64,000 bases of DNA from an uncultured Actinomycetota bacterium (lineage in GTDB: Bacteria; Actinomycetota; Actinomycetes; Mycobacteriales; Nakamurellaceae). The stretch lies in assembly GCA_963696065.1 (NCBI GenBank), contig CAVOIF010000007.1:208707-272706 (forward strand), written 5' to 3'. Positions 4,281 to 47,027 of this stretch are shown here, in pieces. Each line of letters starts with the position of its first letter. Within the stretch, counting starts at the first letter, position 1. The notes under the pieces were generated by a model. The model ran no database searches, was not told where the DNA came from, and saw only the letters and a list, made by a program, of their open reading frames with translations. The translations under genes and the position numbers were made by a program.

Positions 4281-4289
4281 TTCTTCGTG

Positions 4290-12421: not shown

Positions 12422-12428
12422 GTGCAGC

Positions 12429-15569: not shown

Positions 15570-15625
15570 CGGCACAGGCGCGGCGACGGGCGGCCAAGCT
15601 GATCTAACGGCGGCTGATCTGACCG

Positions 15626-16432: not shown

Positions 16433-16543
16433 CGGCTGCGTTTCCGGACCTGCGCGTCATCACCGAACCGTAGCCAAGGCCTGAGCACCGCGGCGGGTCA
16501 GGCCGGTGGACCGGTTCGTCCGGTTGTCGGCAATACTCGTCGC

Positions 16544-31471: not shown

Positions 31472-32212
31472 GTGATCGCGGCCGATCAGGGCACCACCGT
31501 CACCGGCTCGGTGGCTGCGTCATCGACGGCCGGCACCGCCCTGCCCACGTCATCCGTCGTTCCGGCCGACGCGGTTCCCAGCCAGCCGGGTCCGCAGTCA
31601 GGCGTCACGGTGAACGAACCGGCCGTAACCGATCAGACACGGCGCCGGCGGCAGGATGTCGGTGATCTGGTGGTCCGGGCCGGGACGGCGTTCGACGAGT
31701 ACCGGCAGGGTGTGCCGGGCGCCATCGACACTCTGGTCCGGCTGGTGAGCCCGTTGCTCTGGCACACCGCACGGCAGTGCGGATTGACGGCGGCGGAGTC
31801 GGAGGACGTCGTCCAGCAGACCTTCATGTCGCTGGTGCGCAGCAAGGACAGCGTGAGCGATCCGCTGGCCGTTGTCCGCTGGCTGACGGTGAGCCTGCGC
31901 CGGCTGGCCTGGCGCGAGCGGGCGAACAGCGCCAAACGATCGAATGAAGAGCCGACCGACGACGACCTGCCGAGAGCACCGTCGGCCGAACACACCGCCG
32001 TGCTCAGCGATCAGCAGCGACGACTGTGGGAGATGGTCGCCGAATTGTCCGAACGGTGCCGCCGATTGCTGGCGGTGATCGCCTTTGCACCACGACCTGA
32101 TTACGCCGCAATCGCAGTGGATCTGGGCATACCGGTGGGATCCATCGGTCCAACACGAGGGCGCTGCTTGGCAAAGCTGCGGGCTCGACTCGACGGGGGA
32201 GACTGGACATGA
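31472..32212 (+). CDS. ECF-type RNA polymerase sigma factor with low-complexity N-terminal extension
   Basis: Region 2 'ESEDVVQQTFMSL...WL'; region 4 'LSERCRRLL...YAAIAVDLGIPVGSIGPTRGRCLAKLR'. GGGAGG RBS 8 nt before GTG 31472. Confidence 0.9.
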   Translation: MIAADQGTTVTGSVAASSTAGTALPTSSVVPADAVPSQPGPQSGVTVNEPAVTDQTRRRRQDVGDLVVRAGTAFDEYRQGVPGAIDTLVRLVSPLLWHTARQCGLTAAESEDVVQQTFMSLVRSKDSVSDPLAVVRWLTVSLRRLAWRERANSAKRSNEEPTDDDLPRAPSAEHTAVLSDQQRRLWEMVAELSERCRRLLAVIAFAPRPDYAAIAVDLGIPVGSIGPTRGRCLAKLRARLDGGDWT

Positions 32213-32787
32213 CGGCATCTGATGGCGTCCCCGATCGGACGGGTGTGGCCAACACCGCCGAAGGCGTTTTGGCGTTCGATCTGGATGACGAACTGGATCC
32301 CGACGCAGGCCCGATGGATCGCGCGGACCTGCGGATCCTCAGCGACCTGTTGGCCATCTACGACACGGTCGATCCGATGCCCGAGATGCTGCCTGACCTG
32401 GTGCTTTTCGGGCTGGACGCGCAGAGCCTGGACGCCGAGTTCGCCCGTCTGGTGGAGTCCGAACTCTCCGTCTCCGGCGCGTCCGGCACCCGGTCCGTCG
32501 AGCACGCCCGACGGGTCACGTTCGCCAGCGACAGCCTGACGGTGATGGTCGTGGTGAACCCGCAACGCGACGGTTCGGTGCGGCTGGACGGTTGGGCAGC
32601 TCCCGGCGGGCGGTTGCACGCCGAGCTGCGGGTGGGTGACCAGACGCTGACCGCCGAGTGCGACGAGTCCGGGCGGTTCGTCTTCGACGCCGTCCCGGCC
32701 GGCCCGGCGCAACTGGTGCTGCATCCGACCCTGGATTCCGACCCGTCGCTGACCCTGCCCGTGGTGACCCCCGCGGTGCACCTGTAG
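32209..32787 (+). CDS. Soluble hypothetical protein coupled to the ECF sigma (C-terminal beta-sandwich, carboxypeptidase-regulatory-like); candidate anti-sigma
   Basis: ATGA overlap with the sigma stop; acidic helical N-terminus; 'RLDGWAAP...DESGRFVFDAVPAGPAQL'; no TM segment. Confidence 0.7.
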   Translation: MTASDGVPDRTGVANTAEGVLAFDLDDELDPDAGPMDRADLRILSDLLAIYDTVDPMPEMLPDLVLFGLDAQSLDAEFARLVESELSVSGASGTRSVEHARRVTFASDSLTVMVVVNPQRDGSVRLDGWAAPGGRLHAELRVGDQTLTAECDESGRFVFDAVPAGPAQLVLHPTLDSDPSLTLPVVTPAVHL

Positions 32788-32823: not shown

Positions 32824-34353
32824 ATGACCATTCCGTTCGATCTCGCCGAGCGCGGCAGTGCCCACACTGGGTTGGCCGTCCGCGCGTTCGCCGGCCGGAT
32901 CCTGGATGCCCCGTCGATCAGCGCGTCCGACTTCGCCCGGGTACCGACGGCCTACAACGCCGAAGGACTGATCGTCGCCGCCCGCGATGCGACCACTGCA
33001 GGTGCGGTCGGATCCGCCCTGCGCGAGGTGCTGGCCGAGTTCTCCTGTGCGGCAGACGGACCCGACTGGCTGACCGGTGATCGGGCGAGCCTGGACGCGA
33101 ACCAGATTCCCGGCGTGCTGACGTCCGGAGTCCGGATCGTGCCTGGTGACGGAACGTTCGACGGGGGTCGCGGCGGCGGGCCGGATCCGTGGTCGGTGGT
33201 GCAGGAACTGCGGCGGCGGCTCGGCCCCGACCGGGCCGGCTCGGTGAGCCTGAACCATCTGATGACCTCCGCAGAACAGGTGGGCGGCAATCCGTTCGCG
33301 CTCGGCCACGGCCGGATAGGGCTGGACGGCTACGGGGTCAGCGGGGCGGGCGGGCACGGACCGGTGACGTTGACGGTGCAGCCGCCCCGAACAAGTCGGA
33401 CCGGGCGTCGTCCTCGGGTGGTGGTGCTCGACACCGGTGTCGGCGACCATCCCTGGTTCGCCGCCGACCCGCCGGACACCACCATCAGGTTCGACGACGG
33501 CCGGGTGGTGGGACCCGACGTCGCTAGCGGACACCGCCGCGATGAACTGCCCGACAGCCCGACTGACGATCACGACACCGCAGCGGTCGACCCGCTGCTG
33601 GGCAGCCTGCCGACGCACACCGGCCACGGCACGTTCATCGCCGGCCTGCTCCGGCAGATCAGCCCGGACGCGGACATCGTGGCGCTCACCGTGATGCAGG
33701 CGAACGGCATCGTTCCGGAGCACAAACTGATCCGGGCGCTGGATGTGGTGCGGTCCCGTCAGCGGGATAGCCCTGGCTGGGCCGATGCGATCGTGTTGTC
33801 GCTCGGCTATTACGCGGAGACGGGGGAGGACGTCCGCTACACCTCAGGGCTGAAGGACATCCTGTTGGACCTGGGTCGGCTCGGCGTCGCGGTGTTCGCG
33901 GCCGCCGGCAATGATGCCTCGAGTCGACCGTCGTATCCGGCGGCGTTTGCGATCGACCCGGAATTCGCCGATCCCGCCGTCCTGCCGCTGGTCTCGGTCG
34001 CGGCACTGGGCCCCGACGGCTCCGTGGCGCCGTTCTCCAACGATGGACCGTGGGTGACGAGCGAGGCAACCGGGGTCAACCTGGTCTCGGCGTCGCCCCG
34101 GCTGCCCGACGGCGGGGCGAGAGCGGGTCTGGCCTTCCTCGGGCCGGGTGGCCGGGTGCGATCGCTGGTCGACCCGGACGACTTCCGCGGCTTCGCGGCC
34201 TGGAGTGGAACATCCTTCGCGGCACCGGTTCTCGCCGGCCGGTACCTGAACTCCCTGATTGCGACCGGCTTCCCGGCCGGTAACGCCGAACGCCGTGAGC
34301 TGCTCCCGATCGGTCGTAGCTCCCGACCAGAGTTGGCCGTGATCGGGCGATGA
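32824..34353 (+). CDS. S8 (subtilisin-like) serine peptidase 1, no signal peptide
   Basis: Catalytic triad D 'VVLDTG' (33430), H 'HGTFIAG' (33625), S 'SGTSFAAP' (34213); oxyanion N 'AAGND' (33910); about 195-aa N-terminal prodomain. Confidence 0.93.
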   Translation: MTIPFDLAERGSAHTGLAVRAFAGRILDAPSISASDFARVPTAYNAEGLIVAARDATTAGAVGSALREVLAEFSCAADGPDWLTGDRASLDANQIPGVLTSGVRIVPGDGTFDGGRGGGPDPWSVVQELRRRLGPDRAGSVSLNHLMTSAEQVGGNPFALGHGRIGLDGYGVSGAGGHGPVTLTVQPPRTSRTGRRPRVVVLDTGVGDHPWFAADPPDTTIRFDDGRVVGPDVASGHRRDELPDSPTDDHDTAAVDPLLGSLPTHTGHGTFIAGLLRQISPDADIVALTVMQANGIVPEHKLIRALDVVRSRQRDSPGWADAIVLSLGYYAETGEDVRYTSGLKDILLDLGRLGVAVFAAAGNDASSRPSYPAAFAIDPEFADPAVLPLVSVAALGPDGSVAPFSNDGPWVTSEATGVNLVSASPRLPDGGARAGLAFLGPGGRVRSLVDPDDFRGFAAWSGTSFAAPVLAGRYLNSLIATGFPAGNAERRELLPIGRSSRPELAVIGR

Positions 34354-34428
34354 ATCCGCGGCCTTGACGGCGCACTGTTCAACACTGCTGACCCGGTCAG
34401 CCCGTGATTTCCCACCTGGAGGCGCATT

Positions 34429-36082
34429 GTGAACCAGCCCGTGAACCCCGATGGCCCGAACGACCGCGCCCGCGACCAGGGGCGGCGCTTCCTGGAGGAT
34501 CCGCTCACCCGGTTCGATGCCCGGGTGCTGGATCCGTCGACTGCGGTCCGGCTGACGACGGGTGAGGCTCCCTCGGCCACCGTTTACGTCGGCGACACGT
34601 TGCTGGTCACGGCGAGCGACCGCGATGACGCCGAAGAATTGTTGGAGTTGCTGCGCAAGGCCGTCGAGCTGTCCGGGCTGCCGCTGCGATGGTTGGAGCG
34701 AAATCCGTTTCGGCCCAGCGACGACCCGGAACACGATCGGCGGGCCAGACTGCTCACCCTGGCCGCCGAATTCAAGTTGCCGCTGGTCTTCCCGGTGCGT
34801 TTCGAGTCAGCGTCGGACGGACCCGCGCCGGCCGTCGACGTCTGGCCGTTGCTGCAGGCGATCAGGCAGGCCGCCTTCGACGACGGAGACATGCGCCGGC
34901 TGAGCCGAGCGGTTGGGCTGAACCACCTGATGTCGCGGCGGCCGCGAATCAGTGGGAATCCGTTCATGCGGGCACAGCGAGCATCTTCGGCGATCCCTTC
35001 AGCGTGGCATGGCCACCGATCAACGGCAATCCCTTCACCGAGGGGATGGCGGCCGGACTCGAGCAGCTATGCTTCTGCCGGATCCGGTGGTCGAGGACCG
35101 GTCTCCGTTGTGCTTCCCCCACCGCTTCGATCGTCGGCGGACGCCAGCGTCCGCACGTCGTCGTTCTGGACACCGGACTGGGTGCGCACCCCTGGTTCGT
35201 AGCGCGGCCGATGCAGTGGGACTGCAGTTCGCGGACCCTGTGAAGCCAGGTGATCCATCGCTGATCGGTGGGCATGGATCCGAGACAACGGCGATCATCC
35301 GCACCGACCCGGAGGCAGACGGCGCCATCGCCGACTCGATGACCGGTCTGCTCGGCACAGCCACTCCGGACATGGGACATTCATCGCGGGTCTGATTGCG
35401 GCAGGCGTGTGCAGATGCCGACATCACGGCGATCCGGGTGATGGACAGCGACGGGGTCGTTCCAGAAATCGTGCTCACCGATGCGCTGATCGGATCGGTG
35501 CCATCGAGTCCAGAAGGCGAGGTCGATTCGACGCGCTGGTGCTGTCTCTGGGCTATTACTCGGAGACCGGCGACGACGTGACCTACACGGCCGGCCTGCG
35601 CGAACTGTTGCTCGCACTCGCTGCCGCCGGGAGCGGCGATTTTCTGTGCGGCGGGCAATGACTCGACCATGCGACGGAGCTATCCAGCAGCCTTCGCCGA
35701 CGATCCTCGCGTTCACCAACGGCAGCTCACATGCCGATGGCCAGTGTTGCAGCGCTGAATCCCGACTCGACAGTGGCGCTGTTTTCGAACGATGGTCCGT
35801 GGGTCAACGCCGAAGCGCGGGTGCCAACCTGGTGTCGACGGCACCGACCTCCGCCCAGGGTGCCTGGTCTCAGGACACCTCGTTCGAAGGACCACTGAGA
35901 GGCAGCCGAGGCACGGTCGATCCGGATTCCTTTGTCGGCGGTTTCGCGACCTGGAGCGGCACCAGCTTCGCCGCACCGGTTCTCGCCGGACGCTACGTCG
36001 CCAACTTCGCGACAAGGGTCCTCGGACCGTCAAGGACGCGCAGTCGCTGATCGGGCTCGGTCGAACCTCGATCGAGAACTAG
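34429..36082 (+). pseudogene. S8 serine peptidase 2, paralog of peptidase 1, multiply frameshifted in this sequence (error or decay)
   Basis: GGAGG RBS plus GTG. Motifs are spread over different frames: 'LNHLM', 'VVVLDTG' (35169), 'HSGHGTFIAGLI' (35371), 'LSLGYYSETGDDVTY', 'FSNDGPWV', 'WSGTSFAAPVLAG', end 'LIGLGRTSIEN*'. Confidence 0.82.
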
Positions 36083-36142
36083 CAGATGCGCGGCGTGTTC
36101 GGTCGTCCGACATCGATCGTCCCGAAGCGTGATGCTGGATTG

Positions 36143-38739
36143 GTGAGTCGCGTCCGTTCAGGAGACGTCGAGACCCCGAGCGGTCGCACGTCGAGGCTGT
36201 CCGCCGGATGTGGCGACGGGCGCGCCTCGAGGGAGATCGAGGTCATCCGTCTCTCGCCTCCTCCTGGGCGCAAAGGGCCCTGGAGCGGCTTCGGCGGGAC
36301 TGCCCTGACGAAAGCCTGCTACATGCGAGAGTTCTGCTGACCCTGGCGAATCAGATGTCCGAGCTCGGAGATCCGGCAAGATCGACCGCACTGTTGGACG
36401 AGGCGGAGGGGTTGCACCCCGCAGCGACCATCTGGTGCGAGATGAATCGCGGAGTTGTTGCAGGCGCGAATCGGACGGACAGCGGAAGCGATCCGCCACT
36501 TCGAGGTGGCGATCGCGGCTTGCACGACGACACTCTCGACGACGGCGCGGAGCTCTCGCGATCGCCCTGATGAACCGTGGGGTCCTGCACATGTTCGCGG
36601 GTCGACTCGAGAGCGCACAGGCAGACACCGAGGGTGCGCCGGGTGGCACGCGCTGACGGGCGTCGACGTGCTCGCTCTTCATGGCCACCCACAACCTTGG
36701 TTACATCCGTTACCTCGACCGGGGATCTACCAGGCGCTCTGCACACGATGGCGCCGGCCACCGACGTTCATCCAGGTGCCGCGACGGGTGTCCGGCACTC
36801 GACCGCGCTCGGGTCATTCTGTCGTCCGGATTGTTCGGCGAGGCGAAGGACTTCGCTGACGCAGGCCATCGAGTCCTTCGAAAGAACAGAGCGACCGCCG
36901 ACCTCGCCGACGCCCTGTGGTGCGGGCCGAGATCGAGGTTCTCATCGGTGATGCCTCCATCGGCAATCACCAAGACCAGACGAGCGGCGCGGATCGCCGT
37001 ATCGGCGCGGGAACGATCGGCAGCGCTGATCGTCGAGATCCTCGGCCAACGGGCCGCCGCTCGTCTCGGCGAATCGGCACCATCCCGATCCGCGGGCACG
37101 TCGTGACGCCGAACGCGCAGAAGATCTGGCGCGACCGTCTACAGGCGCGGACATGTCGAAGACGCGTCGGGCCGTCCGGTTGCTCGAGGCAGAAGCGTTG
37201 CTCGACACCGGTGATGACGCCGGCGCCGAGAAGCTGGTGATCGAGGTGCGCGCCGAACGACCGGTCGACCTGCCGCTGGCGTGCCCGACTGCACGCCAGG
37301 CTGCTCGCCGGCCGGATCGCATCGTCACCGGACGTCGGACGCGCCGGCCTGCCGCAGGTCCGTCGAGGGCTCGATGATCTCGCCGATTTCCAGGCGCAGG
37401 TTCGGATCACAGGATCTGCAATCGGCAGCCGCGTGCACGGTCGGGAGCTGACCAGACTCGGCCTGCGAACCGCTGTCGCCACTGGATCACCCGCCGCGAT
37501 CCTGCAATGGTTGGAACGCGCAAGAGCCGTCACCACGAGATTGCCCGCCATCCGACCACCGGTCGACCCAGTCCTCGCAGAGGATCTGGGCGCGCTTTGC
37601 GCATGGCCGACGAGCACGCACGGTCCGCCCTGTTGTACGGCGGCCGAGATCCACAGCGGCGGATCGTCGGGTCGCCGAACTGCGGAGGCGGGTACGGGCC
37701 ACGCTCGTGGACCGCGTCCGGGATGGGGAAGGCCGATAGGCCACCGACATTGACCGCGGTGCAACGAGCATTGGCCGAGCACCGACCGGATGCGGGAGTG
37801 GTCGCGCTGTTCGTCGGGGGCGGGCAGATCCATGCGTTGGTGATCACCGCCGGGCGCGCCGTGCACCGGGTGCTGGCCGAGCGGAACGGCATGGAACGGC
37901 AGCGGCATCGGCTGCAGAGCGACCTTGACCTGCTGGCCGAGGAGCGGGTCCCGGACGCTGTGAGGGCGGTGGCCGCCCGTTCGTTGGCGTCCTCCCTGCA
38001 GCAGTTCTCGGACGTGTTCACCCCGGTGCTCGACGTCGTCGGCGCCGGTCCGGTGCTGATCGCCGCCGTCGGTCAGATGGCGACCGTGCCGTGGCTGCTG
38101 CTACCGGGACTGGCCGGACGGCCGGTGACGGTCTCGTCGTCGGTGACCAGGGCGCTGGCCGGGTTGACGACTGCTCGATCCCGCCCGGCCGATCACGGGG
38201 TGCTGGTCGCCGCCGGTCCCGGACTGTCGAACGGGGAGAAGGAAGCCTGCGCCGTTGCCGCCCTGCACCCGGGCTCGCGCCTGCTGGTCGGCGCGGACGC
38301 GACCGGTCGAGCCGTCCTCGACGCCATCCCGCAGGCGGGCCTGGTGCACATCGCCGCGCACGGCCACCACGAGGCGGAGAACCCGTTGTTCTCCGGTGTG
38401 CAGTTCGCCGACGGACTGCTGTTCGGCTACGACCTGGCGCCGAATCCAACCCTGCCCGGCCAGGTGGTGCTGTCCAGCTGTGATGTCGGGCAGACCGACG
38501 ACCGGCCCGGTGGCGAGCCACTCGGACTGGTTGCTGCGCTGGTCCGCAGCGGGGTGCCGACGGTGATCAGCGGGACCAGCAAGATCTCTGACACCGTCGC
38601 CGAGGCCACCATGGTCGGCTACCACGAGCGACTGATCGACGGTGCCAGTCCGGCCACCGCGCTGGCGGAAGCGGTGGCGGCGGCGGGCGCGGATTCCGGG
38701 TTGCCGGCGCCGTTCAGTTGCTTCGGTGCCGGCCTCTGA
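36143..38739 (+). pseudogene. TPR-CHAT (caspase-like) protease 1; 5' half frameshifted, C-terminal CHAT domain intact; start approximate
   Basis: Fragments match the 44263 paralog in order ('THNLG', 'LDRARV', 'DLADAL', 'AVRLLEAEALL', 'HGRELTRLGLRTA...ILQWLER'). Catalytic His 'HIAAHG' (38359) and Cys 'LSSCD' (38479). Confidence 0.85.
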
Positions 38740-38800
38740 CCCGGCGGAAGCCCAATCGGCTGCCAAAAACGCCCGGGTGCGGCCGCGGTGCTCGACACGT

Positions 38801-39574
38801 CTATGCGTCACGCCACCGGAGCATCACCGCGGCGGCAACCATCGCAGTGGTGGCCCACGCAGCAAGGACACCCATCCCCATCCAGGGGCTGATCGCGAGG
38901 CTCTGCAGGTCGACGGTCGACTGAATGCCGAGGCCGGCATTCGTGGGTGCAATCTGCTCGAGGCGCCGCTTCCAATCCGGGTCGCCGACTACCTGGATCA
39001 GAATCGGAAAGAGGTACAGCAGTCCGAGGACGACGCCGACGGCCACCGCAGTGTCTCTGATCAGGGTCGCCATCCCGAGGCTGAGCAGACCGATCAAAGC
39101 GAGGTAGAGAATCGACCCCGCTGTCGCCCGCAGCGTTTGCGGGTCGGTCAGGGACAGCACAGTGAAACCGTTGGTTGCGGTGAAACCGTTGCCTGGCAGG
39201 GTGAGCCTGGCCAGCATCAGCGACCCGAGCACGGCGACAGTGCCGGCGAGCAGCACCATGCCGGTGAGCACAGTGGCCTTCGCCGCCAGCATCGGCCACC
39301 GCCGAGGAATGGCCGCCAGGGTGCTGCGGATCATCCCCGAGCTGTACTCGCCGGTGATGATCAACACCCCGAGCACGGCCACGACCGCCTGGCCCGCCTG
39401 AACTCCGACGAGGCTGATCTTCACCTGATCCTGCAGTTCCCGGGCCTGGAAATGCACCGCTGACGTGGCCAACCAGCTCAGTCCGACCGTCAGCACCACC
39501 ACCACGAGCAGCAGCCATCCGGTCCCCGGGACAGTGCGGAGCTTGGTCCATTCCGCGTGCAGCGCGGATTTCAC
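38801..39574 (-). CDS. ABC transporter permease (LanE/G-like ABC-2 membrane subunit)
   Basis: 'LHAEWTKLRT', 'ITGEYSSGMIRSTLAAIPRR', 'LAAKA'; GTG start overlaps the upstream stop. Confidence 0.88.
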   Translation of the reverse strand: MKSALHAEWTKLRTVPGTGWLLLVVVVLTVGLSWLATSAVHFQARELQDQVKISLVGVQAGQAVVAVLGVLIITGEYSSGMIRSTLAAIPRRWPMLAAKATVLTGMVLLAGTVAVLGSLMLARLTLPGNGFTATNGFTVLSLTDPQTLRATAGSILYLALIGLLSLGMATLIRDTAVAVGVVLGLLYLFPILIQVVGDPDWKRRLEQIAPTNAGLGIQSTVDLQSLAISPWMGMGVLAAWATTAMVAAAVMLRWRDA

Positions 39575-41181
39575 GCGTCCCGCCGCTGCAGTGCGACATT
39601 CGCCAGGCCGAGAGCCAGTGCCGTCCAGATGCAGAGCACCGCAAAGCCGGCCCAGGGTGCCAGCGGGAAGAACCCGATCGACGGCAGATAGGCGGTGTCG
39701 ACCTGTGCGTACTCCGGCGTGCTTTGCGTCACCGCGAAACCGGCGGCCGGGGTGATCCGCAGCAACCACTGCGCGGGATCGGCAGGCAGCACGGACGCGA
39801 CCGCGAGCAGATACGGCAGCACGGTCAGCAGGATGGTGACGGTCAGCGCGGCGGCGCTCCGCCGCAGGATGGTCCCGACGGCCAGGGCGAACACGGCGGC
39901 AAGAGCAAGGAGCGCGGCGGTCCCGACGACCACCCGCACTTCGGTGAGTAACGAGACCGGGAGAACGATCCCGCCCGCGCTTCGTCGCAGCTGGGTGATG
40001 ACAACCACCGCGATCAGAGCCGAGACCAATCCCACGACAAACGTGGCAGTGCCAAGAACGACGGCTTTCGCGGCCAACACCCGGCCACGGCGAGGACTGG
40101 CGATGAACGTGGTGCGGATCAGGCCCCGCCGGAATTCCGCAGTCACGAACGATGTGCTGACCACCAGGATGGCGACCAATCCGGCAAAGACCCCGACCAG
40201 ACCGCGTTCGATGGTGTTCCCGCCGGGACCGGCAACGGCCGGGGCGATGTCGCCGGATCCGGTCATGGTGAAGGTGCCGTCCGATTCGACGAACTGCTGC
40301 ACCGCGGGGGCTGCGGCAACATTCCGGTCCGGGCCGTTTCCGCCGGCCTCACCCGGCTGGTCGGAACCGCTGGAGTCCTCGCCGTCGATGCCCAGCACGG
40401 TCCACTCGCCTCCGGAGGCCCCTCCTTCCAGGTCGACGTTGTCGAACGCCGCGGTTGCCTGGCTCTGATCACCGATCGAGTTGGTGCCGCCGACTTGTTG
40501 TGTGGTGACCTCGTATTCCGGAGACGCAACGAACATCCCCGCGTGCACCGTGGCGGGATTCCCGGTCAGCTGTGCGGTCCCGACCGGGATCCAGGTCCTC
40601 CCGTCGGTGGATTCGTATCCGGTCACGGTGTCGCCGGCCCTGGTCAGTCGCAGCCAGTGCGGCTCGGTCGACGGGATCTGTGCGCCGGCAACATCATTCG
40701 TGAAATTGTCCTGCATGCGAACACCGTGCCCGCCGGTGAGCATGACGGCTGCGTACGGCGATCCCTGAGTGCCGCTCTCCTTGATGATCACCCCCGCCTT
40801 CGCCCATGGCACCACGCCGGGCCGGGTTCTGCCCGCCACCGGGTCCGCCCCCTCCGGAGCGTCGAAATCAGGAATCCTGCCGGTCAGTGAACTCACCCGG
40901 GCGGTGATGCTGCCGTCACCCGTCAGCTCCTGCTGGACGAAGACGAAGCGGTCCACCACAGCCTCACCGTTCGGGCCGACGACAACACAGTCGGTCGCGG
41001 CGCCGCACGGCGTCGGCCCGCCCAGCACGGTGAAACCGAGCAGGACGGTCAGCACCGCTGCGAGCAACAGGCCGATCACCCAGCCCCGCACGGTCCGGAA
41101 CTTTGTCCACTCCGATCTGACCAACTGCGCGAAACCAGCTTCGGTGACGACGATCTCGGATCGATACGCGGTGGCGGTCAT
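39571..41181 (-). CDS. ABC transporter permease with a large inserted extracytoplasmic ConA/LamG-like (DUF1349-like) domain
   Basis: 'LVRSEWTKFRT', TM1, then about 250 aa soluble ('GDGSITARV', 'WAKAGVIIK', 'HWLRLTRAGDTVTGYESTDG'), then 'TAEFRRGLIRTTF' and five TMs. Confidence 0.85.
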   Translation of the reverse strand: MTATAYRSEIVVTEAGFAQLVRSEWTKFRTVRGWVIGLLLAAVLTVLLGFTVLGGPTPCGAATDCVVVGPNGEAVVDRFVFVQQELTGDGSITARVSSLTGRIPDFDAPEGADPVAGRTRPGVVPWAKAGVIIKESGTQGSPYAAVMLTGGHGVRMQDNFTNDVAGAQIPSTEPHWLRLTRAGDTVTGYESTDGRTWIPVGTAQLTGNPATVHAGMFVASPEYEVTTQQVGGTNSIGDQSQATAAFDNVDLEGGASGGEWTVLGIDGEDSSGSDQPGEAGGNGPDRNVAAAPAVQQFVESDGTFTMTGSGDIAPAVAGPGGNTIERGLVGVFAGLVAILVVSTSFVTAEFRRGLIRTTFIASPRRGRVLAAKAVVLGTATFVVGLVSALIAVVVITQLRRSAGGIVLPVSLLTEVRVVVGTAALLALAAVFALAVGTILRRSAAALTVTILLTVLPYLLAVASVLPADPAQWLLRITPAAGFAVTQSTPEYAQVDTAYLPSIGFFPLAPWAGFAVLCIWTALALGLANVALQRRDA

Positions 41182-42149
41182 CGGGTGGACTCCCGGCTCA
41201 GGGCCGGGTCGCCGACCGGGAGTTCGGCTGCCTGCAATTCGCCTGCCCGAAACTCGACGGTGTTCCTGGTCAGGTCCATGTAGGCCTCCTCGAGGGTCGC
41301 GCGGTGCGCGGCCACCTCGGAGAACGGCACGGCGGCGTCGTTCATCAGGGCAATGACCCGCCCCGCCGGCAGACCGGACACCGTCAGGGTGTCGGGTCCG
41401 GTGACAGCAACGGTGGCCCCGGCATTCGCCAGCGCCGACATGGCGGATGACCGTTCGGTGGTGCGCACGGTGATCTGGCCACTTGAGGCCGTCGCTATCA
41501 GCTCGGCAACACTGGTGTCGGCGACCAGTCGTCCGCGGCCGATCACCACCAGATGCCCGGCGGTGTCCTGCAGTTCGGCCATCAGGTGGCTCGACACCAG
41601 GATCGCGCGGCCCTCGTCGGCCAGTGATCGCAGCAGCGTGCGGATCCAGACGACACCCTCCGGATCCAGCCCGTTGAACGGCTCGTCGAGGATCAGGATC
41701 GCCGGATCGCCGAGCAGGGCTGCGGCGATTCCCAGTCGCTGACGCATGCCCAACGAATAGCCACCCGCCCGTCGGCCGGCCGCGCTCTGCAGCCCCACCT
41801 GTTCGACCACCTGGTCGACCCGCTGTCCGGTCAGGCCCTGTGAGTGGGCGAGCCAGAGCAGGTGGTTGCGACCGGTGCGGCTGGCCTGCAGCGCCCCGGC
41901 GTCCAGCAGCGCGCCGACGTGCTGCAATGGGCGATGCAGCGTGCGGTAGGGCCGGCCGCCGACCAACGCGGTTCCTTCGTCGAGCGCATCCAGGCCGAGG
42001 ATGGCCCGCATGGTGGTGGACTTTCCGGCACCGTTGGGCCCGACGAAGCCGGTGACCTGCCCGGGCTGCACGGTGAAGGACAACCCGTCGAGTGCTACCG
42101 CCGACCCGAAACGTTTCCGCAGGCCACTGACTTCGATGCTCGCTTCCAT
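41178..42149 (-). CDS. ABC transporter ATP-binding protein (BcrA/LanF-like)
   Basis: GPNGAGKS, YSLGMRQRLG, LILDEP, 'VSSHLMAE'. Confidence 0.93.
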   Translation of the reverse strand: MEASIEVSGLRKRFGSAVALDGLSFTVQPGQVTGFVGPNGAGKSTTMRAILGLDALDEGTALVGGRPYRTLHRPLQHVGALLDAGALQASRTGRNHLLWLAHSQGLTGQRVDQVVEQVGLQSAAGRRAGGYSLGMRQRLGIAAALLGDPAILILDEPFNGLDPEGVVWIRTLLRSLADEGRAILVSSHLMAELQDTAGHLVVIGRGRLVADTSVAELIATASSGQITVRTTERSSAMSALANAGATVAVTGPDTLTVSGLPAGRVIALMNDAAVPFSEVAAHRATLEEAYMDLTRNTVEFRAGELQAAELPVGDPALSRESTR

Positions 42150-42184
42150 TCCGGAAACGCTAGGCAGCCGGGCCGGGCTCGTCG

Positions 42185-42230
42185 TCACCCCCGGGAGCGA
42201 TGTTTCGCTGGACATCCCTCACGGGAGGGA
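42185..42230. promoter_or_regulatory. Pair of imperfect palindromes, candidate response-regulator binding sites
   Basis: TCACCCCCGGGAGCGA (42185-42200) and TCCCTCACGGGAGGGA (42215-42230): 12/16 identical, 30-bp spacing, between the divergent ABC and two-component genes. Confidence 0.5.
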
Positions 42231-42256
42231 CGCCGACGAGATCGCCGACGGTCACA

Positions 42257-43456
42257 ATGAGCCGTATGGATCAACGGCCGACCTGGCGCAGTGGATCGCT
42301 GGGGGCCGAACGACGACGGCTGGACTCCCCGCAGGTGCGCACCGTCGTGGCCGGCATCCTGGGGGCAGCCGCGGTGATCGAGACGATCGCGCGGGCGGCC
42401 GGCAGCGGAGACGGAGCGCTGTTCGTCGTGGTGCTCTGTCTGCTGGGGCTGGCCGGCACGCTGCCGGTGGCCGCACCGCGAACGGCCGCCGCCGCGATCG
42501 TCGTATCGGCAGCGAACCTGTTGTCGGTCATGCCGTTTCAGACACTGACCATCGCCGGAGTCGGTGCTCAGCTGATGGTTGGTTACCGGCTCGGCCGCAC
42601 CGGACCACAGGTCCTCGCCATCGGCCTGCCGTTGCCGTTTCTGTTGTTGGCCCTGGCCGGTCCGATCGGTTCCTGGAATTGGCAGCTCTCCCTCGGACTG
42701 GCCGCGCTGATCCCGACGTTCGCGCTGGCCGGTGCTGCAGTTCGACGGCGGGAAGAGGCCAGGGAGTACACCTCGGCCCGCGAGGACATCCTCGGGACCC
42801 TGCTGGAGCACAGCGCGCGCGGGGAACGGGCGCGAATAGCGCGGGAGTTACATGACGTTGTCGCCCATCATGTCTCGCTGATCGCGGTGCAAGCGGAGAC
42901 GGCCCGGTTGACCACGCCGGGAATGCCGGCCGTTGGCGCGCAACGGCTGTCCCAGATCGGTGACACCGCCCGCACCGCGCTGACCGAGATGCGCCGACTG
43001 CTCGGCGTGTTACGCGAAGATGCGCAGACCACTGACAACGACCGCCGGCCGCAGCCGAGTCTGGCTCAACTCAATGACCTGCTCGACGAGGCGAGAAAGA
43101 ATTCCGGGGCGGCCACCAGGCTGATCTTGTCCGGTTCGCCGGACGCGTTGGATCCGGGCGTCGAGCTTGCCGCCTACCGCATCGTCCAGGAGGCGCTGAC
43201 CAACGCCCGCCGCCATGCACCCGGCGCTGCCGTCGACGTCGAGTTGCAGTACACCGACGCCGCGTTGCTCGTCCGCATCCGGGACAACGGCCCGGGGCCG
43301 CCGTCGCCGTCGGTGGATGCGGTGCACGGACACGGGTTGCTCGGCATGCGGGAGCGGGCGGCCGCGGTCGGCGGCCGGTTGGAGATCGGTGCCGCGGCAG
43401 GCGGCGGATTCGTGGTGCAGACAACCCTGCCGACGACAGCGGAATCACTCCGGTGA
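42257..43456 (+). CDS. Membrane sensor histidine kinase (HisKA_3, DesK/NarX-like)
   Basis: '[15 protein letters not shown]', '[15 protein letters not shown]', '[10 protein letters not shown]'; N-terminal TMs. Confidence 0.93.
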
Positions 43457-44187
43457 CGCCGCCCGGACAACCGAGGTTCCCGGTTCGGATCGTGGTCGCC
43501 GACGACCAGGGGATTGTGCGGGAGGGCTTCGCCTCACTGCTCGCCACTCAAGCGGATTTCGAGGTGGTCGGCACCGCGGCCGACGGCGCCCAGGCGGTTC
43601 GGCTGTGCACCGAACTCGAACCCGACGTCATCCTGATGGACATCCGGATGCCCGGGATGGACGGAATCGCCGCAACCCGGGAACTCAGCGGGCCGGGTAG
43701 CCGGCCCGATGGGCCCCGAATTCTCATCCTGACCACCTTTGACCTGGACGAATATGTCTATGACGCGCTGCGTGCCGGGGCCAGTGGCTTTCTGCTCAAG
43801 GACGTCACCGCGGAACGGCTGTTCGAGGCCGTCCGGGTGATCGCCACCGGCGACGCACTGCTCGCGCCCGCCGTGACCCGGAGACTGATCGGGGAATTCG
43901 CAGCGCTCCGGGTCAGACCCGAAACCGCCTCCGCTGCAGCCCGATCCGGGCTCGATCTGGCCGCCCTGACGCCGCGGGAGACCCAGGTGCTGCGGCTGGT
44001 CGCCGAGGGACTGTCCAATGCTGAAATCGCCCAGCGGCTCGTCGTGTCCGAGGAGACGGTGAAGACGCACGTCAGCAGAGTGCTGAGCAAACTCGGTCTG
44101 CGAGACCGCACCCAGGCAGTTGTCGTCGCGTACGAGTCGGGCCTGGTGGTGCCCGGCACTCTGCCGCCACGACCACATGAAGGGTGA
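43453..44187 (+). CDS. NarL/LuxR family response regulator
   Basis: 'VVADD', 'ILMDIRMP', 'GFLLKD', 'LTPRETQVL...GLSNAEIA...TVKTHV'. Confidence 0.95.
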
Positions 44188-44262
44188 ACGCTTCCGGAGT
44201 CGACCAGAACCACTCGGCAGGGCCGAGATGTCGTCTCTGCCGTCACCGAGCATGCTGTCCGA

Positions 44263-46923
44263 GTGACGACGAGTGACCGGTTTGTCGCCGAGCCCACGCG
44301 GTCCAGTTCGGCACTCGGTTCCGCGGCCGATCTCTGGGTCCGGGCCCGGAATCGGGTCGATTTCGGCCGCCCGGCCACCGGGCTGAAGTTGGGTGCGCGG
44401 GCCCTGGAACACCTGCGCACCGAGCACGTCCCGGAGGGCCAGGCGGCGGTGCTGCGCTCGCGGATCCTGGTCACCATGGCCGACGCCCAGGTCGAACTGG
44501 GCCGCACCGCCGAGGCCGACGACCTGCTGGATGCCGCGCTGCAGCAGAGCGCGACGGCGTTGCCGATGGTGCAGGCCTCCCGCGGAGTGTTGCTGGCCAG
44601 GACGGGCCGGCTGCCCGAGGCCCGGCAGCAACTGGATGCGGGAGTGGCCGCGTTGTCGCAGAGCAGCCGGCCGAGTGCGAACCTGGTGCGTGCGCTGCTG
44701 TGGCGGGGCCTGCTGCACCTGAGCGAGGCGAGACTGGATGCGGCGCAGGCGGACTGCGAGGTGGTCGTCGAGCTCGGCCGATCGACCGGCATGGACCCGG
44801 CCGTCGCGGTGGCCACCCACAATCTCGGTCTGGTGCGGTGGGTCTCCGGCGATCTTCCGGGTGCGTTGCACGAGATGGCGCTCGCCGACGAGGTCGCCCA
44901 CGATGTGCGCGCCGGCATCCGATCCCTCGATCGGGCCCGCGTGCTGCTGGCCGCCGGTCTGCTACTGGAGGCCAGGGAGTTCGCCGACCGGGCGGAGCGG
45001 GTGTTCGCCAGCGAACGGGCCAAAGTCGATCTCGCGGACGCCTTGCTGGTGCAGGCGGAGATCGACATCGTCGCTCGGCGGGCCAAGGCGGCGCGGTCGG
45101 CGGCCCGCCGGTCCGCGCGCAACTACGCCCTGGCCGGGTACGAACGCGGCGTGCTCGCGGCCAGGGTGATGGAGGTCAGGGCAGAGGCGAACGTCCGGGC
45201 CGCCATCCGGCCGTTGCCGCGCCGGCAGGCGCTGCAGGATGCGAGTGCGGCCGAGGCGCTGGTCACCGATCTGCTGACTGCCGGTCAACAGGAGGATGCC
45301 CGGGCGGTGCGGCTGCTGCAGGCAGAGGCGTTGCTGCAGGCCGGCGACCTCCCCGCTGCGGAGACCGCTGCCGAGGCGGCCGCCGGTCTCGGAGCCGGCA
45401 ACGGATCGGCCAACCGGGCGGCCCGGGTGCCGTTGATCGCCACCGAGCTGCACACCCAGGTCATTGCGGCCCGCATCGAGCTCGCCCACGGCCGCCGGTC
45501 GTCCGGGTTGGCGCACATCAGGCGCGGGCTGGACGACCTTGCCGCCTACCAGGCCCGCTTCGGCTCCCAGGACCTGCAATCGGCGTCCGCCGTGCACGGT
45601 AGCGAGCTGACCAGGTTGGGGCTGCGCACTGCACTGCAGACTCGCTCACCGGCGGCGATCCTGCAGTGGCTGGAACGATCCCGCGCGGCGAGCACCAGGT
45701 TGGCCGCGGTCCGTCCGTCGATGGACGGTGTGCTGGCCCGGGAGCTGAGCAAGCTGCGGATGGCCTCCTACCGCGCCCGCATGGCGTTGCTGGCCGGGGC
45801 CGCCGACCCGGACATCGAGGACGAGGTCGACCAGTTGCGGCGCCGGGTGCGGTCCCGTTCCTGGGGCGTGGTGGGCACCGGCGCGGTGAACCGGCCGTTG
45901 CCGTTGGCCGCCGTGCAGCGCCGGCTGGCGGACACCGGCGAGCGGATCAGCGTGGTCGCGCCGTTCCGCGGCAACGGCCAGTTCCATGCGTTGGTGATCA
46001 CCTCCGGCACCGCCCGCTACGTCCCGCTCGGACCGGATTTCGGCCTCGAGTACCACCTGCAGCGGATCATCGGCGACCTGAACGTGTTGGCCGATCACCG
46101 GATCATGCAGGCCCTTCGGTCGGTGGCGGACGTGTCGCTGCGGGCCGGGCTGGGCAGGGTCGCGCGGTTCATCGTCGATCCGCTGCTGCCGTTTGTCGAT
46201 CAAGGACCGATCGTGGTGGCGGCGGCCGGGTCGGCCGCCATCGTGCCCTGGGCGCTGTTGCCCGGGCTGGACGGTCGCGCGGTGTCTGTCAGTCCGTCGG
46301 TGACCGCCGCGGTCGCCCACCTCGGCCAGACCCGGCAGGTCCACCGGCGCGGGGTGCTGGCGGTCGCCGGCCCGGAGGTGCCGCACGCCGGGCGTGAGGT
46401 CGACAGTGTGCTGGCCGCCTACCGGCCGGCGCCGACGGACGCGTCGACGAACGGCTCGACCAGCCAACTCACCGGTCCGGCCGCCACCGGACGGGCCGTG
46501 CTGGAGGCGATCCCGGCCGGCGGGCTGCTGCACATCGCCGCCCACGGCCATCACGAGCCGGACAACCCGCTCTTCTCCGGAGTGCTGCTGGCGGACGGTC
46601 TGTTGTACGGGTACGACGTCGCGCCGAACCCGTCGATCCCGGCCCAGGTCGTGCTCTCCAGCTGTGACGTCGGCCGCACCGACGACCGGCCGGGCAGCGA
46701 GCCGCTCGGCCTGGTCGCGGCCCTGTTGCGCAGCGGGGTGTCGACGGTGATCGCCGGCACCAGCCGGGTGTCCGATCAGGTGGCGGCGAGCGTGATGGCT
46801 GCCTACCACCAGCGGTTGAGTGCCGACCAGGCGCCGGCCATCGCGCTGGCCGGGGCGATCGCGACCACCGCCGGCAGCGGCGCCGATCCGGCGCCCTTCA
46901 CCTGTTTCGGGGCCGGCCTGTAG
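44263..46923 (+). CDS. TPR-CHAT (caspase-like) protease 2, intact, 886 aa
   Basis: Ala/Leu/Arg-rich helical repeats with 'THNLG'; CHAT 'VPWALLPGL', His 'HIAAHG' (46543), Cys 'LSSCD' (46663), end 'PAPFTCFGAG'. Confidence 0.92.
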   Translation: MTTSDRFVAEPTRSSSALGSAADLWVRARNRVDFGRPATGLKLGARALEHLRTEHVPEGQAAVLRSRILVTMADAQVELGRTAEADDLLDAALQQSATALPMVQASRGVLLARTGRLPEARQQLDAGVAALSQSSRPSANLVRALLWRGLLHLSEARLDAAQADCEVVVELGRSTGMDPAVAVATHNLGLVRWVSGDLPGALHEMALADEVAHDVRAGIRSLDRARVLLAAGLLLEAREFADRAERVFASERAKVDLADALLVQAEIDIVARRAKAARSAARRSARNYALAGYERGVLAARVMEVRAEANVRAAIRPLPRRQALQDASAAEALVTDLLTAGQQEDARAVRLLQAEALLQAGDLPAAETAAEAAAGLGAGNGSANRAARVPLIATELHTQVIAARIELAHGRRSSGLAHIRRGLDDLAAYQARFGSQDLQSASAVHGSELTRLGLRTALQTRSPAAILQWLERSRAASTRLAAVRPSMDGVLARELSKLRMASYRARMALLAGAADPDIEDEVDQLRRRVRSRSWGVVGTGAVNRPLPLAAVQRRLADTGERISVVAPFRGNGQFHALVITSGTARYVPLGPDFGLEYHLQRIIGDLNVLADHRIMQALRSVADVSLRAGLGRVARFIVDPLLPFVDQGPIVVAAAGSAAIVPWALLPGLDGRAVSVSPSVTAAVAHLGQTRQVHRRGVLAVAGPEVPHAGREVDSVLAAYRPAPTDASTNGSTSQLTGPAATGRAVLEAIPAGGLLHIAAHGHHEPDNPLFSGVLLADGLLYGYDVAPNPSIPAQVVLSSCDVGRTDDRPGSEPLGLVAALLRSGVSTVIAGTSRVSDQVAASVMAAYHQRLSADQAPAIALAGAIATTAGSGADPAPFTCFGAGL

Positions 46924-47027
46924 CCGCGGCCGGCCCGCTCCCGGCGCGCCGCTGGATACCGGGCGCGGCGCCGGATCGGCTACCGTCGTTGTCACCGCAT
47001 CGACGATCACCCCTGGAGCCCTGAGCA

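What the first reader, a model, noticed from the sequence alone, without database searches (positions are those of the whole stretch)
44263..46923. Second, intact TPR-CHAT paralog: two sensors for one cascade?
It is collinear with CHAT 1 over its full length (shared THNLG, LDRARV, DLADAL, ELTRLGLRTA, ILQWLER, HIAAHG, LSSCD, PFxCFGAG). The N-terminal helical region looks more diverged than the protease domain. With two subtilases and two CHATs, the locus may have paired specificities (CHAT1-S8a, CHAT2-S8b) or a heteromeric protease. This intact copy is the practical entry point for experiments.
Basis: partly seen in the sequence, partly recalled or inferred. Interest (0 to 1): 0.68.

Follow-up and report, generated by a model that had tools for sequence, protein, structure and literature searches.

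The report
Displaced second TPR-CHAT protease gene
This is an intact caspase-like protease gene that normally sits last in a sigma-factor/protease gene cassette common in Nakamurella soil bacteria, and here a 5.5-kb insertion has cut it off from the rest; it is a real, selected gene but an ordinary duplicate of a catalogued, still untested, kind of system.

Summary
Window 44263-46923 (+) is an intact 886-aa gene. It has a TPR-like helical solenoid and a C-terminal CHAT (caspase-like) domain with invariant His761/Cys801. It evolves under purifying selection (dN/dS 0.11-0.18). It is a collinear paralog of CHAT1 (36187-38739): 48% identity after frameshift correction, 44% in the TPR part, 60% in the CHAT domain.

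In relatives the two CHAT genes are tandem neighbours at the end of one cassette, sigma-X-S8-S8-CHAT1-CHAT2, between prcA and CNNM-CNNM-pafA. Here a lineage-specific 5.5-kb block (ABC transporter plus two-component system, 38740-44222) splits them. Three other assemblies confirm the insertion.

Among 28 Nakamurella species loci, the sigma factor and X (an unnamed 192-aa protein encoded next to it) are always present. S8 and CHAT copy numbers vary independently ((2,2) 14, (1,2) 4, (2,1) 2, (1,1) 3, (0,1) 5). A fixed CHAT-S8 pairing is therefore not supported. Membership of a sigma-linked cascade is.

The "broken" state of CHAT1 and S8b (25 frameshifts in 2.7 kb, none in the flanking genes) is most likely consensus noise. 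The cassette matches the catalogued but untested ECF54 gene context. The fold resembles separase, Csx29 and DdvA. A heteromeric CHAT1-CHAT2 protease remains possible but was not tested.

The parts
44263..46923 (+). CHAT2: intact 886-aa soluble TPR-CHAT protease gene. TPR-like solenoid aa 20-533 (nt 44320-45861), beta/alpha linker domain aa 548-645, CHAT caspase-like domain aa 646-886 (nt 46198-46920).
   Evidence: ORF and translation. Pfam CHAT 80.6 bits. AF2 model pLDDT 85.4, pTM 0.79, with 26 helices followed by an alpha/beta domain. Foldseek matches to separase, DdvA and Csx29. dN/dS 0.11 and 0.18. No transmembrane segment or signal peptide in a hydropathy scan.
46543..46545 (+). Codon of the predicted catalytic His761 (motif HIAAHG).
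   Evidence: Invariant in 67 family members and in all 20 genus copies of both paralogs.
46663..46665 (+). Codon of the predicted catalytic Cys801 (motif LSSCD).
   Evidence: Invariant in 67 family members. Present in all 20 genus copies.
44188..44262 (+). 75-nt gap between the response-regulator stop codon and the CHAT2 start. Its last ~40 nt (from 44223) are the remnant of the ancestral CHAT1-CHAT2 intergenic region.
   Evidence: Comparison with L018, which has no insertion. No promoter or terminator consensus was found.
38740..44222 (.). Lineage-specific inserted block of 5.5 kb: two ABC-2 permeases (38801-39769 and 39571-41181, minus strand), an ABC ATPase (41178-42215, minus), a HisKA_3 histidine kinase (42200-43456, plus) and a LuxR-type response regulator (43453-44187, plus).
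   Evidence: Pfam. The block is absent between CHAT1 and CHAT2 in all other genomes examined. It is present in three other assemblies of the same lineage: L017, L021 and L033/L076. No terminal repeats. The permease is patchy within the genus.
36187..38739 (+). CHAT1: tandem paralog of CHAT2. As assembled it carries 13 frameshifts (36472-37701) and one in-frame stop (36654). The protease half is in one open frame from 37702 to 38739.
   Evidence: tblastn. Frameshift-aware alignment with zero-frameshift controls. His/Cys motifs intact. C-terminal dN/dS 0.13. L021 is in a single frame where the window needs three shifts.
34429..36100 (+). S8b subtilase, with 12 frameshifts as assembled (34966-36065). 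The D/H/S motifs are intact after correction.
32824..34353 (+). S8a subtilase: intact, with no signal peptide.
   Evidence: Pfam Peptidase_S8. Translation. Zero frameshifts in the control alignment. Hydropathy scan.
32209..32787 (+). X: acidic 192-aa protein whose start overlaps the sigma stop codon. It is the most conserved cassette gene and the candidate sigma partner or protease substrate.
   Evidence: Translation. 82-92% identity in type-A relatives. AF2 model: two helices, a low-confidence linker at aa 87-98, and a beta-sandwich at aa 101-172. Weak CarboxypepD_reg hit, E 0.08. pI 4.15.
31472..32212 (+). ECF-type sigma factor. The likely true start is the GTG near 31472. The ATG at 31373 is not conserved.
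   Evidence: TIGR02937 scores 57.4 bits against a cut-off of 42.9. Sigma70_r2 hit. Alignment of the upstream region.

Best explanation
CHAT2 is the conserved last gene of a sigma-factor/protease cassette. In Nakamurella this cassette lies between prcA and CNNM-CNNM-pafA, with the ancestral content ECF sigma - X - subtilase(s) - TPR-CHAT(s).

Shown: CHAT2 and CHAT1 arose by tandem duplication and are adjacent in relatives. In this lineage a 5.5-kb ABC-transporter/two-component block was inserted into their intergenic region. CHAT2 now follows the response-regulator gene by 75 nt and lies 12 kb from its sigma gene. The protein is soluble. It has an N-terminal TPR-like solenoid and a C-terminal caspase-like CHAT domain with a complete His-Cys dyad, and it is kept by purifying selection.

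Inferred: the solenoid binds a signal or a partner protein, and this licenses the CHAT domain to cut a locus protein. The most likely target is X, at its flexible linker. The alternative is the sigma factor's variable N-terminal extension. Cleavage would free or activate the ECF sigma factor. This parallels Csx29, which cuts the sigma-binding Csx30 (from my knowledge of the Craspase literature, not checked here). The subtilases are dispensable modulators, not obligate partners. CHAT1 and CHAT2 either sense different inputs in parallel or act as a dimer. CHAT2 is probably now transcribed by read-through from the kinase/regulator genes, so its expression may be uncoupled from the sigma operon.
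For: Synteny: the two CHAT genes are tandem in 18 of 28 bounded species loci, and sigma and X are present in 28 of 28.

Co-occurrence: cassette-type CHAT and X are found together in 16 of 16 genus genomes and in 0 of the 9 that lack X.

Orthology: the CHAT2 clade is well supported, and the single CHAT of the minimal cassette of G007 falls inside it.

Insertion: absent in L018 (88% identical CHAT2) and in all other genomes. Present in L017, L021 and L033/L076.

Functionality: dN/dS 0.11-0.18. His761 and Cys801 are invariant.

Fold: pLDDT 85. Foldseek gives separase E 8e-13, DdvA (a TPR-CHAT anti-sigma factor) 5e-12, Csx29 4e-10.

TPR: profile hits to TPR proteins at E 3.8e-11.

Sigma: it is ECF-type.

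X: two-part layout with a low-confidence linker. X is acidic (pI 4.15) and CHAT2 basic (pI 9.5).

Literature: proteolytic control has been proposed for ECF54 because of conserved subtilase, CHAT and carboxypeptidase-domain neighbours (PMC8999054). DdvA is a TPR-CHAT anti-sigma dimer whose active sites face the dimer interface (PMC11506125).
Against: No cleavage, binding or transcript data exist for any member of this cassette. Regulator and regulon target cannot be told apart from gene context alone, as Casas-Pastor et al. themselves note (PMC7826278).

X has no recognisable anti-sigma domain. It gave no significant PDB fold match, and Pfam found only a weak CarboxypepD_reg hit (E 0.08).

Assignment of this sigma factor to group ECF54 could not be tested here.

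Co-transcription of CHAT2 with the two-component genes is only inferred from spacing. The promoter/terminator scan found nothing either way.
Confidence: 0.6

Rival explanations
1. CHAT1 and CHAT2 form a heteromeric (heterodimeric) caspase-like protease. The duplicated subunits are co-expressed and activate or cleave each other in trans, so neither works fully alone in species that carry both.
For: The tandem arrangement is kept in 18 of 28 species loci, with short gaps. In G024 my start-codon choice gives a 4-nt overlap of CHAT1 and CHAT2. Both paralogs keep the full His-Cys dyad in all copies. DdvA, a structural neighbour, is a dimer whose CHAT active sites face the interface (PMC11506125).
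Against: Ten of 28 species loci work with a single CHAT. In this genome the two genes have been uncoupled by the insertion, yet CHAT2 remains under selection. No complex prediction could be run.
Confidence: 0.25
2. Paired specificities: each CHAT works with its own subtilase (CHAT1 with S8a, CHAT2 with S8b) as two parallel two-protease modules.
For: The commonest state is two S8 plus two CHAT (14 of 28 loci). No locus has two CHAT genes without any S8.
Against: States with 1 S8 and 2 CHAT (4 loci), 2 S8 and 1 CHAT (2 loci) and 0 S8 and 1 CHAT (5 loci) all exist. CHAT2-clade genes occur without any subtilase. S8a and S8b stem from one old duplication shared by both gene orders, whereas the CHAT copies of the two gene orders do not resolve into matching clades.
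Confidence: 0.07
3. CHAT2 is an output of the sigma regulon rather than its regulator. It would be a stress- or phage-induced executioner or quality-control protease that cuts cellular or foreign proteins. X and the subtilases would be co-effectors or inhibitors.
For: Context alone cannot separate regulators from targets (PMC7826278). The four protease genes diverge faster than the flanking genes and than X: S8a 58-64%, CHAT1 59-63%, CHAT2 64-81%, against 82-93% for X, prcA and CNNM1. The S8b-CHAT1 sensor segment differs between near-identical strains. The genome holds two more sigma/CHAT or CHAT/S8 modules.
Against: No match to any PADLOC defence model. The invariant link is to sigma and X rather than to any effector-like gene. 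Both solved bacterial precedents of this fold that involve a sigma factor (Csx29, DdvA) act upstream of it.
Confidence: 0.2
4. After the insertion CHAT2 became functionally independent of the cassette and now serves the adjacent two-component system and ABC transporter.
For: CHAT2 lies 75 nt downstream of the response-regulator gene on the same strand. The ABC genes converge on CHAT1, which probably ends transcription from the sigma operon.
Against: The adjacency exists only in this young lineage (dS about 0.02 to L021). CHAT2 has not diverged unusually: it is 88% identical to the uninserted relative L018, with dN/dS 0.11. Relatives with the same protein have no such neighbours.
Confidence: 0.08

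Closest known systems
ECF54 gene context (ECF sigma with subtilase, CHAT and carboxypeptidase-regulatory-domain neighbours; Huang et al. 2015, Casas-Pastor et al. 2021, reviewed in PMC8999054)
   Same: An actinobacterial ECF-type sigma factor without a canonical anti-sigma, flanked by S8 subtilase and CHAT genes and by a small protein with a CarboxypepD_reg-like beta-sandwich. Control by proteolysis has been proposed but never tested.
   Different: Here and in most Nakamurella the CHAT gene, and usually the S8 gene, is duplicated in tandem. In this lineage the second CHAT is cut off by a 5.5-kb insertion. Group assignment of the sigma factor itself could not be checked with the tools at hand.
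Csx29 (TPR-CHAT) of type III-E CRISPR 'Craspase'
   Same: TPR solenoid plus CHAT caspase-like domain (Foldseek E 4e-10). Genetic link to an ECF-type sigma factor. From my own knowledge of the Craspase literature (not checked here), Csx29 cleaves Csx30, a sigma-binding partner, so it offers a working model for cutting X.
   Different: No Cas7-11/gRAMP, CRISPR array, Csx30 or Csx31 at this locus. Only 11-12% sequence identity. CHAT2 is larger (886 aa against about 650-735 aa). Activation cannot be RNA-guided.
DdvA, the transmembrane TPR-CHAT anti-sigma factor of Myxococcus xanthus (PMC11506125)
   Same: Separase/craspase-type TPR-CHAT architecture tied to control of an ECF sigma factor. It forms a dimer with active sites at the interface, which is a precedent for a CHAT-CHAT pair.
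   Different: DdvA is a membrane protein with an N-terminal zinc-binding anti-sigma domain and an incomplete His-Cys site. CHAT2 is soluble, has no anti-sigma domain, and has a complete dyad.
Separase (eukaryotic cohesin protease)
   Same: Best structural match: helical solenoid followed by a caspase-like domain (Foldseek E 8e-13, TM-score normalised by query length 0.41-0.52).
   Different: 9-13% identity. No securin or cohesin context. The resemblance is of fold class only.

Membership tests
CHAT domain proteases (Pfam PF12770, caspase-like clan) | Match to the family profile above its curated cut-off | tested here: met
   80.6 bits against a cut-off of 24, aa 649-865.
CHAT domain proteases (Pfam PF12770, caspase-like clan) | Conserved catalytic His-Cys dyad | tested here: met
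   His761 (HIAAHG) and Cys801 (LSSCD) are invariant in 67 homologs and in all 20 genus copies.
CHAT domain proteases (Pfam PF12770, caspase-like clan) | Caspase-like alpha/beta fold resembling solved CHAT or separase domains | tested here: met
   AF2 model with pLDDT 85. Foldseek probability 1.0 to separase, DdvA and Csx29.
CHAT domain proteases (Pfam PF12770, caspase-like clan) | Peptidase activity | not testable with these tools
   Needs a cleavage assay with a C801A control.
TPR-CHAT architecture (Csx29 / DdvA / separase type) | N-terminal TPR or helical solenoid preceding the CHAT domain in one chain | tested here: met
   26 helices in aa 21-533 of the model. A family profile hits TPR proteins at E 3.8e-11. 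Pfam TPR models score only below their cut-offs.
Type III-E CRISPR Craspase (Csx29) | Encoded with Cas7-11/gRAMP, a CRISPR array and Csx30/Csx31 | tested here: not met
   The neighbours are proteasome, sigma, X, S8, ABC, two-component, CNNM and Paf genes, in all 28 relatives as well. No PADLOC model matches.
ECF54 gene context | ECF-type sigma factor in the same cassette | tested here: met
   TIGR02937 scores 57.4 bits against a cut-off of 42.9. The sigma gene is 12 kb upstream here, but in the same compact cassette in relatives that lack the insertion.
ECF54 gene context | Sigma factor classified into group ECF54 by the ECF Hub models | not testable with these tools
   No ECF group models are available. 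Huang et al. 2015 and the supplements of Casas-Pastor et al. are not held.
ECF54 gene context | Conserved neighbours with subtilase, CHAT and carboxypeptidase(-regulatory) domains, and no canonical anti-sigma | tested here: inconclusive
   S8 and CHAT are clear. The beta-sandwich of X gives only a weak CarboxypepD_reg hit (E 0.08). X has no transmembrane segment, and I saw no zinc anti-sigma motif in its sequence.
DdvA-type transmembrane anti-sigma factors | N-terminal zinc-binding anti-sigma domain and a transmembrane helix | tested here: not met
   No transmembrane segment: the hydropathy maximum of 1.81 lies inside the CHAT core strand. The N-terminus runs straight into the solenoid.

The most novel reading that the evidence does not exclude
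The two tandem TPR-CHAT paralogs form a two-subunit caspase-like switch for an ECF sigma factor. In this reading CHAT1's sensor half, together with S8b, is a strain-variable recognition module. CHAT2 is the conserved core subunit, which alone suffices in the minimal sigma-X-CHAT2 cassettes. The pair would then be a CRISPR-independent bacterial analogue of Craspase or DdvA signalling, with an immune-receptor-like variable sensor, possibly reading phage or stress proteins.
Probability: 0.12. Interest if true: 0.75.

Novelty: new variant of a known kind. Interest (0 to 1): 0.38.

Why it matters
Control of ECF sigma factors by soluble caspase-like and subtilisin-like proteases has been proposed from gene context (ECF54) but never shown. 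This work sorts the cassette into an invariant core (sigma, X and one TPR-CHAT of the CHAT2 type) and optional parts (subtilases and a second CHAT). It identifies natural minimal three-gene cassettes and cultivable carriers, which makes the hypothesis directly testable. It also corrects two impressions that raw sequence would give. CHAT2 is not a separate locus; it is the displaced end of the cassette. CHAT1 and S8b are probably not pseudogenes.

Tried and rejected
- My first reading of the CHAT1 N-terminus as hypervariable (32-36% identity, very long tree branch) was rejected. It came from out-of-frame translation. After frameshift-aware alignment the whole protein is 63% identical to G010 CHAT1 (TPR part 58%), about the same as CHAT2 (66%).
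- One dN/dS comparison (CHAT1 vs G020) gave nonsense values because of frame problems and is discarded.
- Terminal repeats or mobile-element marks around the 5.5-kb insert: none.
- Promoter and terminator scan of 38500-47300: nothing.
- Rfam scan of the whole window: no hits.
- PADLOC and NCBIfam: no model matches CHAT2.
- Fold search for X: only generic beta-sandwiches, none significant.
- Separate N-terminal tree to decide between one and two CHAT duplications: unresolved.
- Huang et al. 2015 and the supplements of Casas-Pastor et al. could not be read.
- Look-up of earlier scan findings by the CHAT2 sequence: nothing.
Full report
**1. What is at the coordinates**

Window 44263-46923 (+) is a single open frame of 886 codons starting with GTG. 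It has the codon-position GC pattern of real genes in this 69% GC genome: 0.76/0.54/0.89 for positions 1, 2 and 3. The start and the first residues (VTTSDR) are conserved in a relative (L018). A public JGI gene call of 887 aa begins at the same base.

Pfam finds a CHAT domain at aa 649-865, 80.6 bits against a cut-off of 24. Its TPR matches are all below their cut-offs. A profile built from 67 homologs hits TPR proteins of known structure at E 3.8e-11.

The AlphaFold2 model is good (pLDDT 85.4, pTM 0.79). It shows 26 helices forming a solenoid (aa 21-533), a small beta/alpha domain (aa 548-645) and an alpha/beta domain (aa 646-886).

Foldseek against the PDB gives these matches, all at probability 1.0 and 9-16% identity:
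- human and yeast separase (E 8e-13)
- the Myxococcus TPR-CHAT anti-sigma factor DdvA (5e-12)
- Csx29 of type III-E CRISPR (4e-10)

His761 (HIAAHG) and Cys801 (LSSCD) are invariant in the 67 homologs and in all 20 genus copies examined. A hydropathy scan finds no membrane segment or signal peptide; the maximum lies in a core strand of the CHAT domain.

The gene is under purifying selection. dN/dS is 0.11 against an 88%-identical relative and 0.18 against an 81%-identical one.

The family is large. A search of 1.84 billion cluster representatives gives 1,038 at E <= 1e-30, and most of the top 150 align over their full length.

**2. The paralog**

A tblastn of CHAT2 against the window finds one paralog at 36208-38736. 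The genome holds two more distant copies. In CHAT1 they lie in three reading frames.

I wrote a frameshift-aware protein-to-DNA alignment. As controls, CHAT2 and S8a each give zero frameshifts with it. CHAT1 needs 13 frameshifts (36472-37701) and has one in-frame stop. S8b needs 12 frameshifts (34966-36065).

After correction, CHAT1 is 48% identical to CHAT2: 44% in the TPR part and 60% in the CHAT domain. The same gradient holds in seven intact tandem pairs of relatives, at 43-47% in the N-terminal part (aa 1-480) and 62-69% in the CHAT domain.

**3. Context: CHAT2 is the displaced end of a cassette**

The window is an actinobacterial Pup-proteasome region. The gene order is:
- prcB, prcA
- ECF-type sigma, X, S8a, S8b, CHAT1
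- three ABC genes on the minus strand, a histidine kinase, a response regulator
- CHAT2
- two CNNM/CBS genes, pafA, a WYL gene (pafB/C-like)

Names attached to homologs place the organism in or near Nakamurella.

In same-genus genomes the two CHAT genes are direct neighbours, with estimated gaps of roughly 30 to 270 nt. The cassette there is contiguous between prcA and CNNM.

A scan of species-representative genomes gave 69 named loci, 28 of them bounded on both sides by prcA and CNNM1. Their gene orders are:

| Gene order | Loci |
|---|---|
| sigma-X-S8-S8-CHAT-CHAT | 7 |
| sigma-X-S8-CHAT-CHAT | 4 |
| sigma-X-CHAT | 5 |
| S8-S8-sigma-X-CHAT-CHAT | 7 |
| S8-S8-sigma-X-CHAT | 2 |
| S8-sigma-X-CHAT | 3 |

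Outside the genus, S8-sigma-X-CHAT occurs in a Jatrophihabitantaceae MAG, Hamadaea tsunoensis, Intrasporangium, Pedococcus and a Micromonosporaceae MAG. This single-copy form is probably ancestral.

Sigma and X are present in 28 of 28 bounded loci. Among 25 genus genomes, X is present in exactly the 16 that carry a cassette-type CHAT.

**4. The insertion**

A metagenome contig whose CHAT2 is 88% identical (L018) has CHAT1 followed after 68 nt by CHAT2. Homology to the window resumes at 44223. The window therefore carries an insert of about 5.5 kb at 38740-44222.

The insert is real. Three other assemblies of the same lineage share its junctions:
- L017: response regulator, CHAT2, CNNM1, at 99.5% nucleotide identity
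- L021: CHAT1 C-terminus, ABC genes, kinase, regulator, CHAT2, at about 99.6%
- The MAG MFD03066.bin.2.149, loci L076 and L033

The insert has no terminal repeats. Its large permease is patchily distributed in the genus.

As a consequence, the ABC genes now converge on CHAT1. CHAT2 follows the response-regulator gene by 75 nt on the same strand. Co-transcription with the two-component genes is plausible but not shown.

**5. Is CHAT1 really broken?**

Probably not. Five observations point to consensus noise in a segment that differs between co-occurring strains:
- There are 25 frame disruptions within 2.74 kb, and none in S8a or CHAT2.
- After correction, CHAT1 and S8b are as similar to their G010 orthologs (63% and 65%) as S8a (64%) and CHAT2 (66-67%). 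Family motifs and catalytic residues are intact.
- The CHAT1 protease half has dN/dS 0.13, the same as the equivalent part of CHAT2.
- L021 is in one open frame across 37552-37750. It lacks exactly the extra bases at my three predicted shifts there.
- Against the related MAG, the segment 34408-37746 shows 47 gap events per kb, 132 of 161 being single bases. The flanks show 3.5-5.5 per kb. That MAG is itself frameshifted in the same genes, and its contigs break at about 37750. The short-read contig L021 ends 200 nt to the left, at 37552.

I put noise against recent real decay at about 75:25.

**6.

"One cascade" is supported by sections 3 and 4.

"Paired specificities" is not supported. The (S8, CHAT) copy numbers in the 28 bounded loci are:

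| S8 copies | CHAT copies | Loci |
|---|---|---|
| 2 | 2 | 14 |
| 1 | 2 | 4 |
| 2 | 1 | 2 |
| 1 | 1 | 3 |
| 0 | 1 | 5 |

The single CHAT of the minimal cassette of G007 falls inside the CHAT2 clade with support 96/94. In the other sigma-X-CHAT loci the CHAT gene is 68-72% identical to CHAT2.

The S8 tree shows one old S8a/S8b duplication shared by both gene orders. G012's single copy lies outside it. The CHAT tree makes CHAT1 and CHAT2 of the sigma-first gene order sister groups (94/99). It leaves the copies of the other gene order unresolved. The two histories do not mirror each other.

CHAT2 orthologs do occur without S8 genes, but never without sigma and X.

"Heteromeric protease" stays open. 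In its favour are the conserved tandem arrangement, the complete dyads in both copies and the DdvA dimer precedent (PMC11506125). Against an obligate heteromer are the ten single-CHAT loci.

**7. Mechanism proposed**

Shown: the domain architecture, the conserved dyad, solubility, selection, and the invariant linkage to sigma and X.

Inferred:
- X is the sigma partner. Its start overlaps the sigma stop codon. It is the best-conserved cassette gene, at 82-92% identity. It is acidic (pI 4.15) while CHAT2 is basic (pI 9.5).
- The X model has two helices (aa 38-54 and 61-69), a low-confidence linker (aa 87-98) and a confident beta-sandwich (aa 101-172). The sandwich gives a weak CarboxypepD_reg hit. 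X has no significant PDB neighbour.
- I propose that the CHAT2 solenoid binds a signal or partner, and the CHAT domain then cuts X or the sigma factor's variable N-terminal extension. This would release sigma activity. The subtilases would be optional modulators.
- This parallels Csx29 cutting the sigma-binding Csx30, which I cite from my own knowledge of the Craspase literature and did not check here.
- It agrees with the untested proposal of proteolytic control for ECF54 sigma factors (PMC8999054).
- Casas-Pastor et al. caution that neighbours may be targets rather than regulators (PMC7826278). I keep that as a rival reading.

**8. Comparison with known systems, and novelty**

CHAT2 meets the tested criteria of the CHAT family and of the TPR-CHAT architecture.

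It is not a Craspase component: there are no cas genes at the locus and identity to Csx29 is only 11-12%. It is not a DdvA-type anti-sigma factor: it has no membrane segment, no zinc anti-sigma domain, and a complete rather than incomplete dyad.

The cassette fits the published ECF54 gene context. The group assignment of the sigma factor could not be tested here.

What goes beyond the catalogue entry:
- the tandem CHAT duplication, usually with an S8 duplication, found in most Nakamurella
- the definition of an invariant sigma-X-CHAT core, with natural minimal cassettes
- the lineage-specific split of the pair by an insertion

These are modest additions to a known but experimentally untouched kind of system.

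**Verdict:** real, correctly observed, partly correctly interpreted. Interest 0.38.

Noticed in passing
window 31200-31470: The prcA-sigma intergenic region is strongly conserved in five genus members. Long identical blocks end in two GGGAGG-type ribosome-binding sites, each followed by a GTG. The ATG at 31373 is not conserved, so the sigma gene probably starts at the GTG near 31472. This leaves a conserved leader of about 240 nt (promoter, uORF or structured RNA?). Rfam has no match.
   Followed up: partly
window 34408-37750: This segment (S8b plus the CHAT1 sensor half) is indel-ridden in this assembly and in a related MAG. It is 15% mismatched between genomes that differ by 4.5-8.4% in the flanks. 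It is bounded on the right by a point near 37750: the related MAG's contigs break there, and the short-read contig L021, which ends at 37552, stops diverging from the window there. This points to co-existing divergent alleles in the populations sampled.
   Followed up: partly
window 32824-38739 versus 44263-46923: Phylogenetic discordance inside the cassette. The window's S8a and CHAT1 group with G010/G024, whereas CHAT2 groups with G020/G007. CHAT2 is 81% identical to G020 but CHAT1 only 61%. This suggests recombination between cassette halves.
   Followed up: partly
own genome, G000:C1:1061052-1063091 (L019) and G000:C7:392736-395033 (L020): Two further TPR-CHAT paralogs (30-34% identity to CHAT2). 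One lies downstream of another ECF-type sigma gene. The other is followed directly by another S8 subtilase. A sigma-CHAT type without X is also common in Micromonospora and Krasilnikovia.
   Followed up: partly
window 34940-35050 (S8b, frameshift-corrected): The corrected S8b translation reads ISGNPFAGTASIFGDPFSVAWPPINGNPFTEG. That is three GNPF-like motifs before the catalytic Asp, as another first-stage note suspected.
   Followed up: no
L086 (Nakamurella endophytica) 11467-16717; L012 (G007) 3130-4284: The junction between the last CHAT gene and CNNM1 also carries unrelated inserted DNA in other species: about 5 kb in N. endophytica and about 1.1 kb with two small ORFs in G007. The 3' end of the cassette seems to be a recurrent insertion site.
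   Followed up: no
L031 (G007:C1:5942001-5960000): A second sigma-CHAT-S8 module in G007 lies next to an ABC ATPase (51% identical) and a permease (40% identical) related to those of the block inserted here. This may be chance or a recurrent association.
   Followed up: no
protein P0050: One public gene call of 1195 aa joins a CHAT2 ortholog (59% identity) to the downstream CNNM domain. It is probably a frameshift or gene-calling artefact.
   Followed up: no
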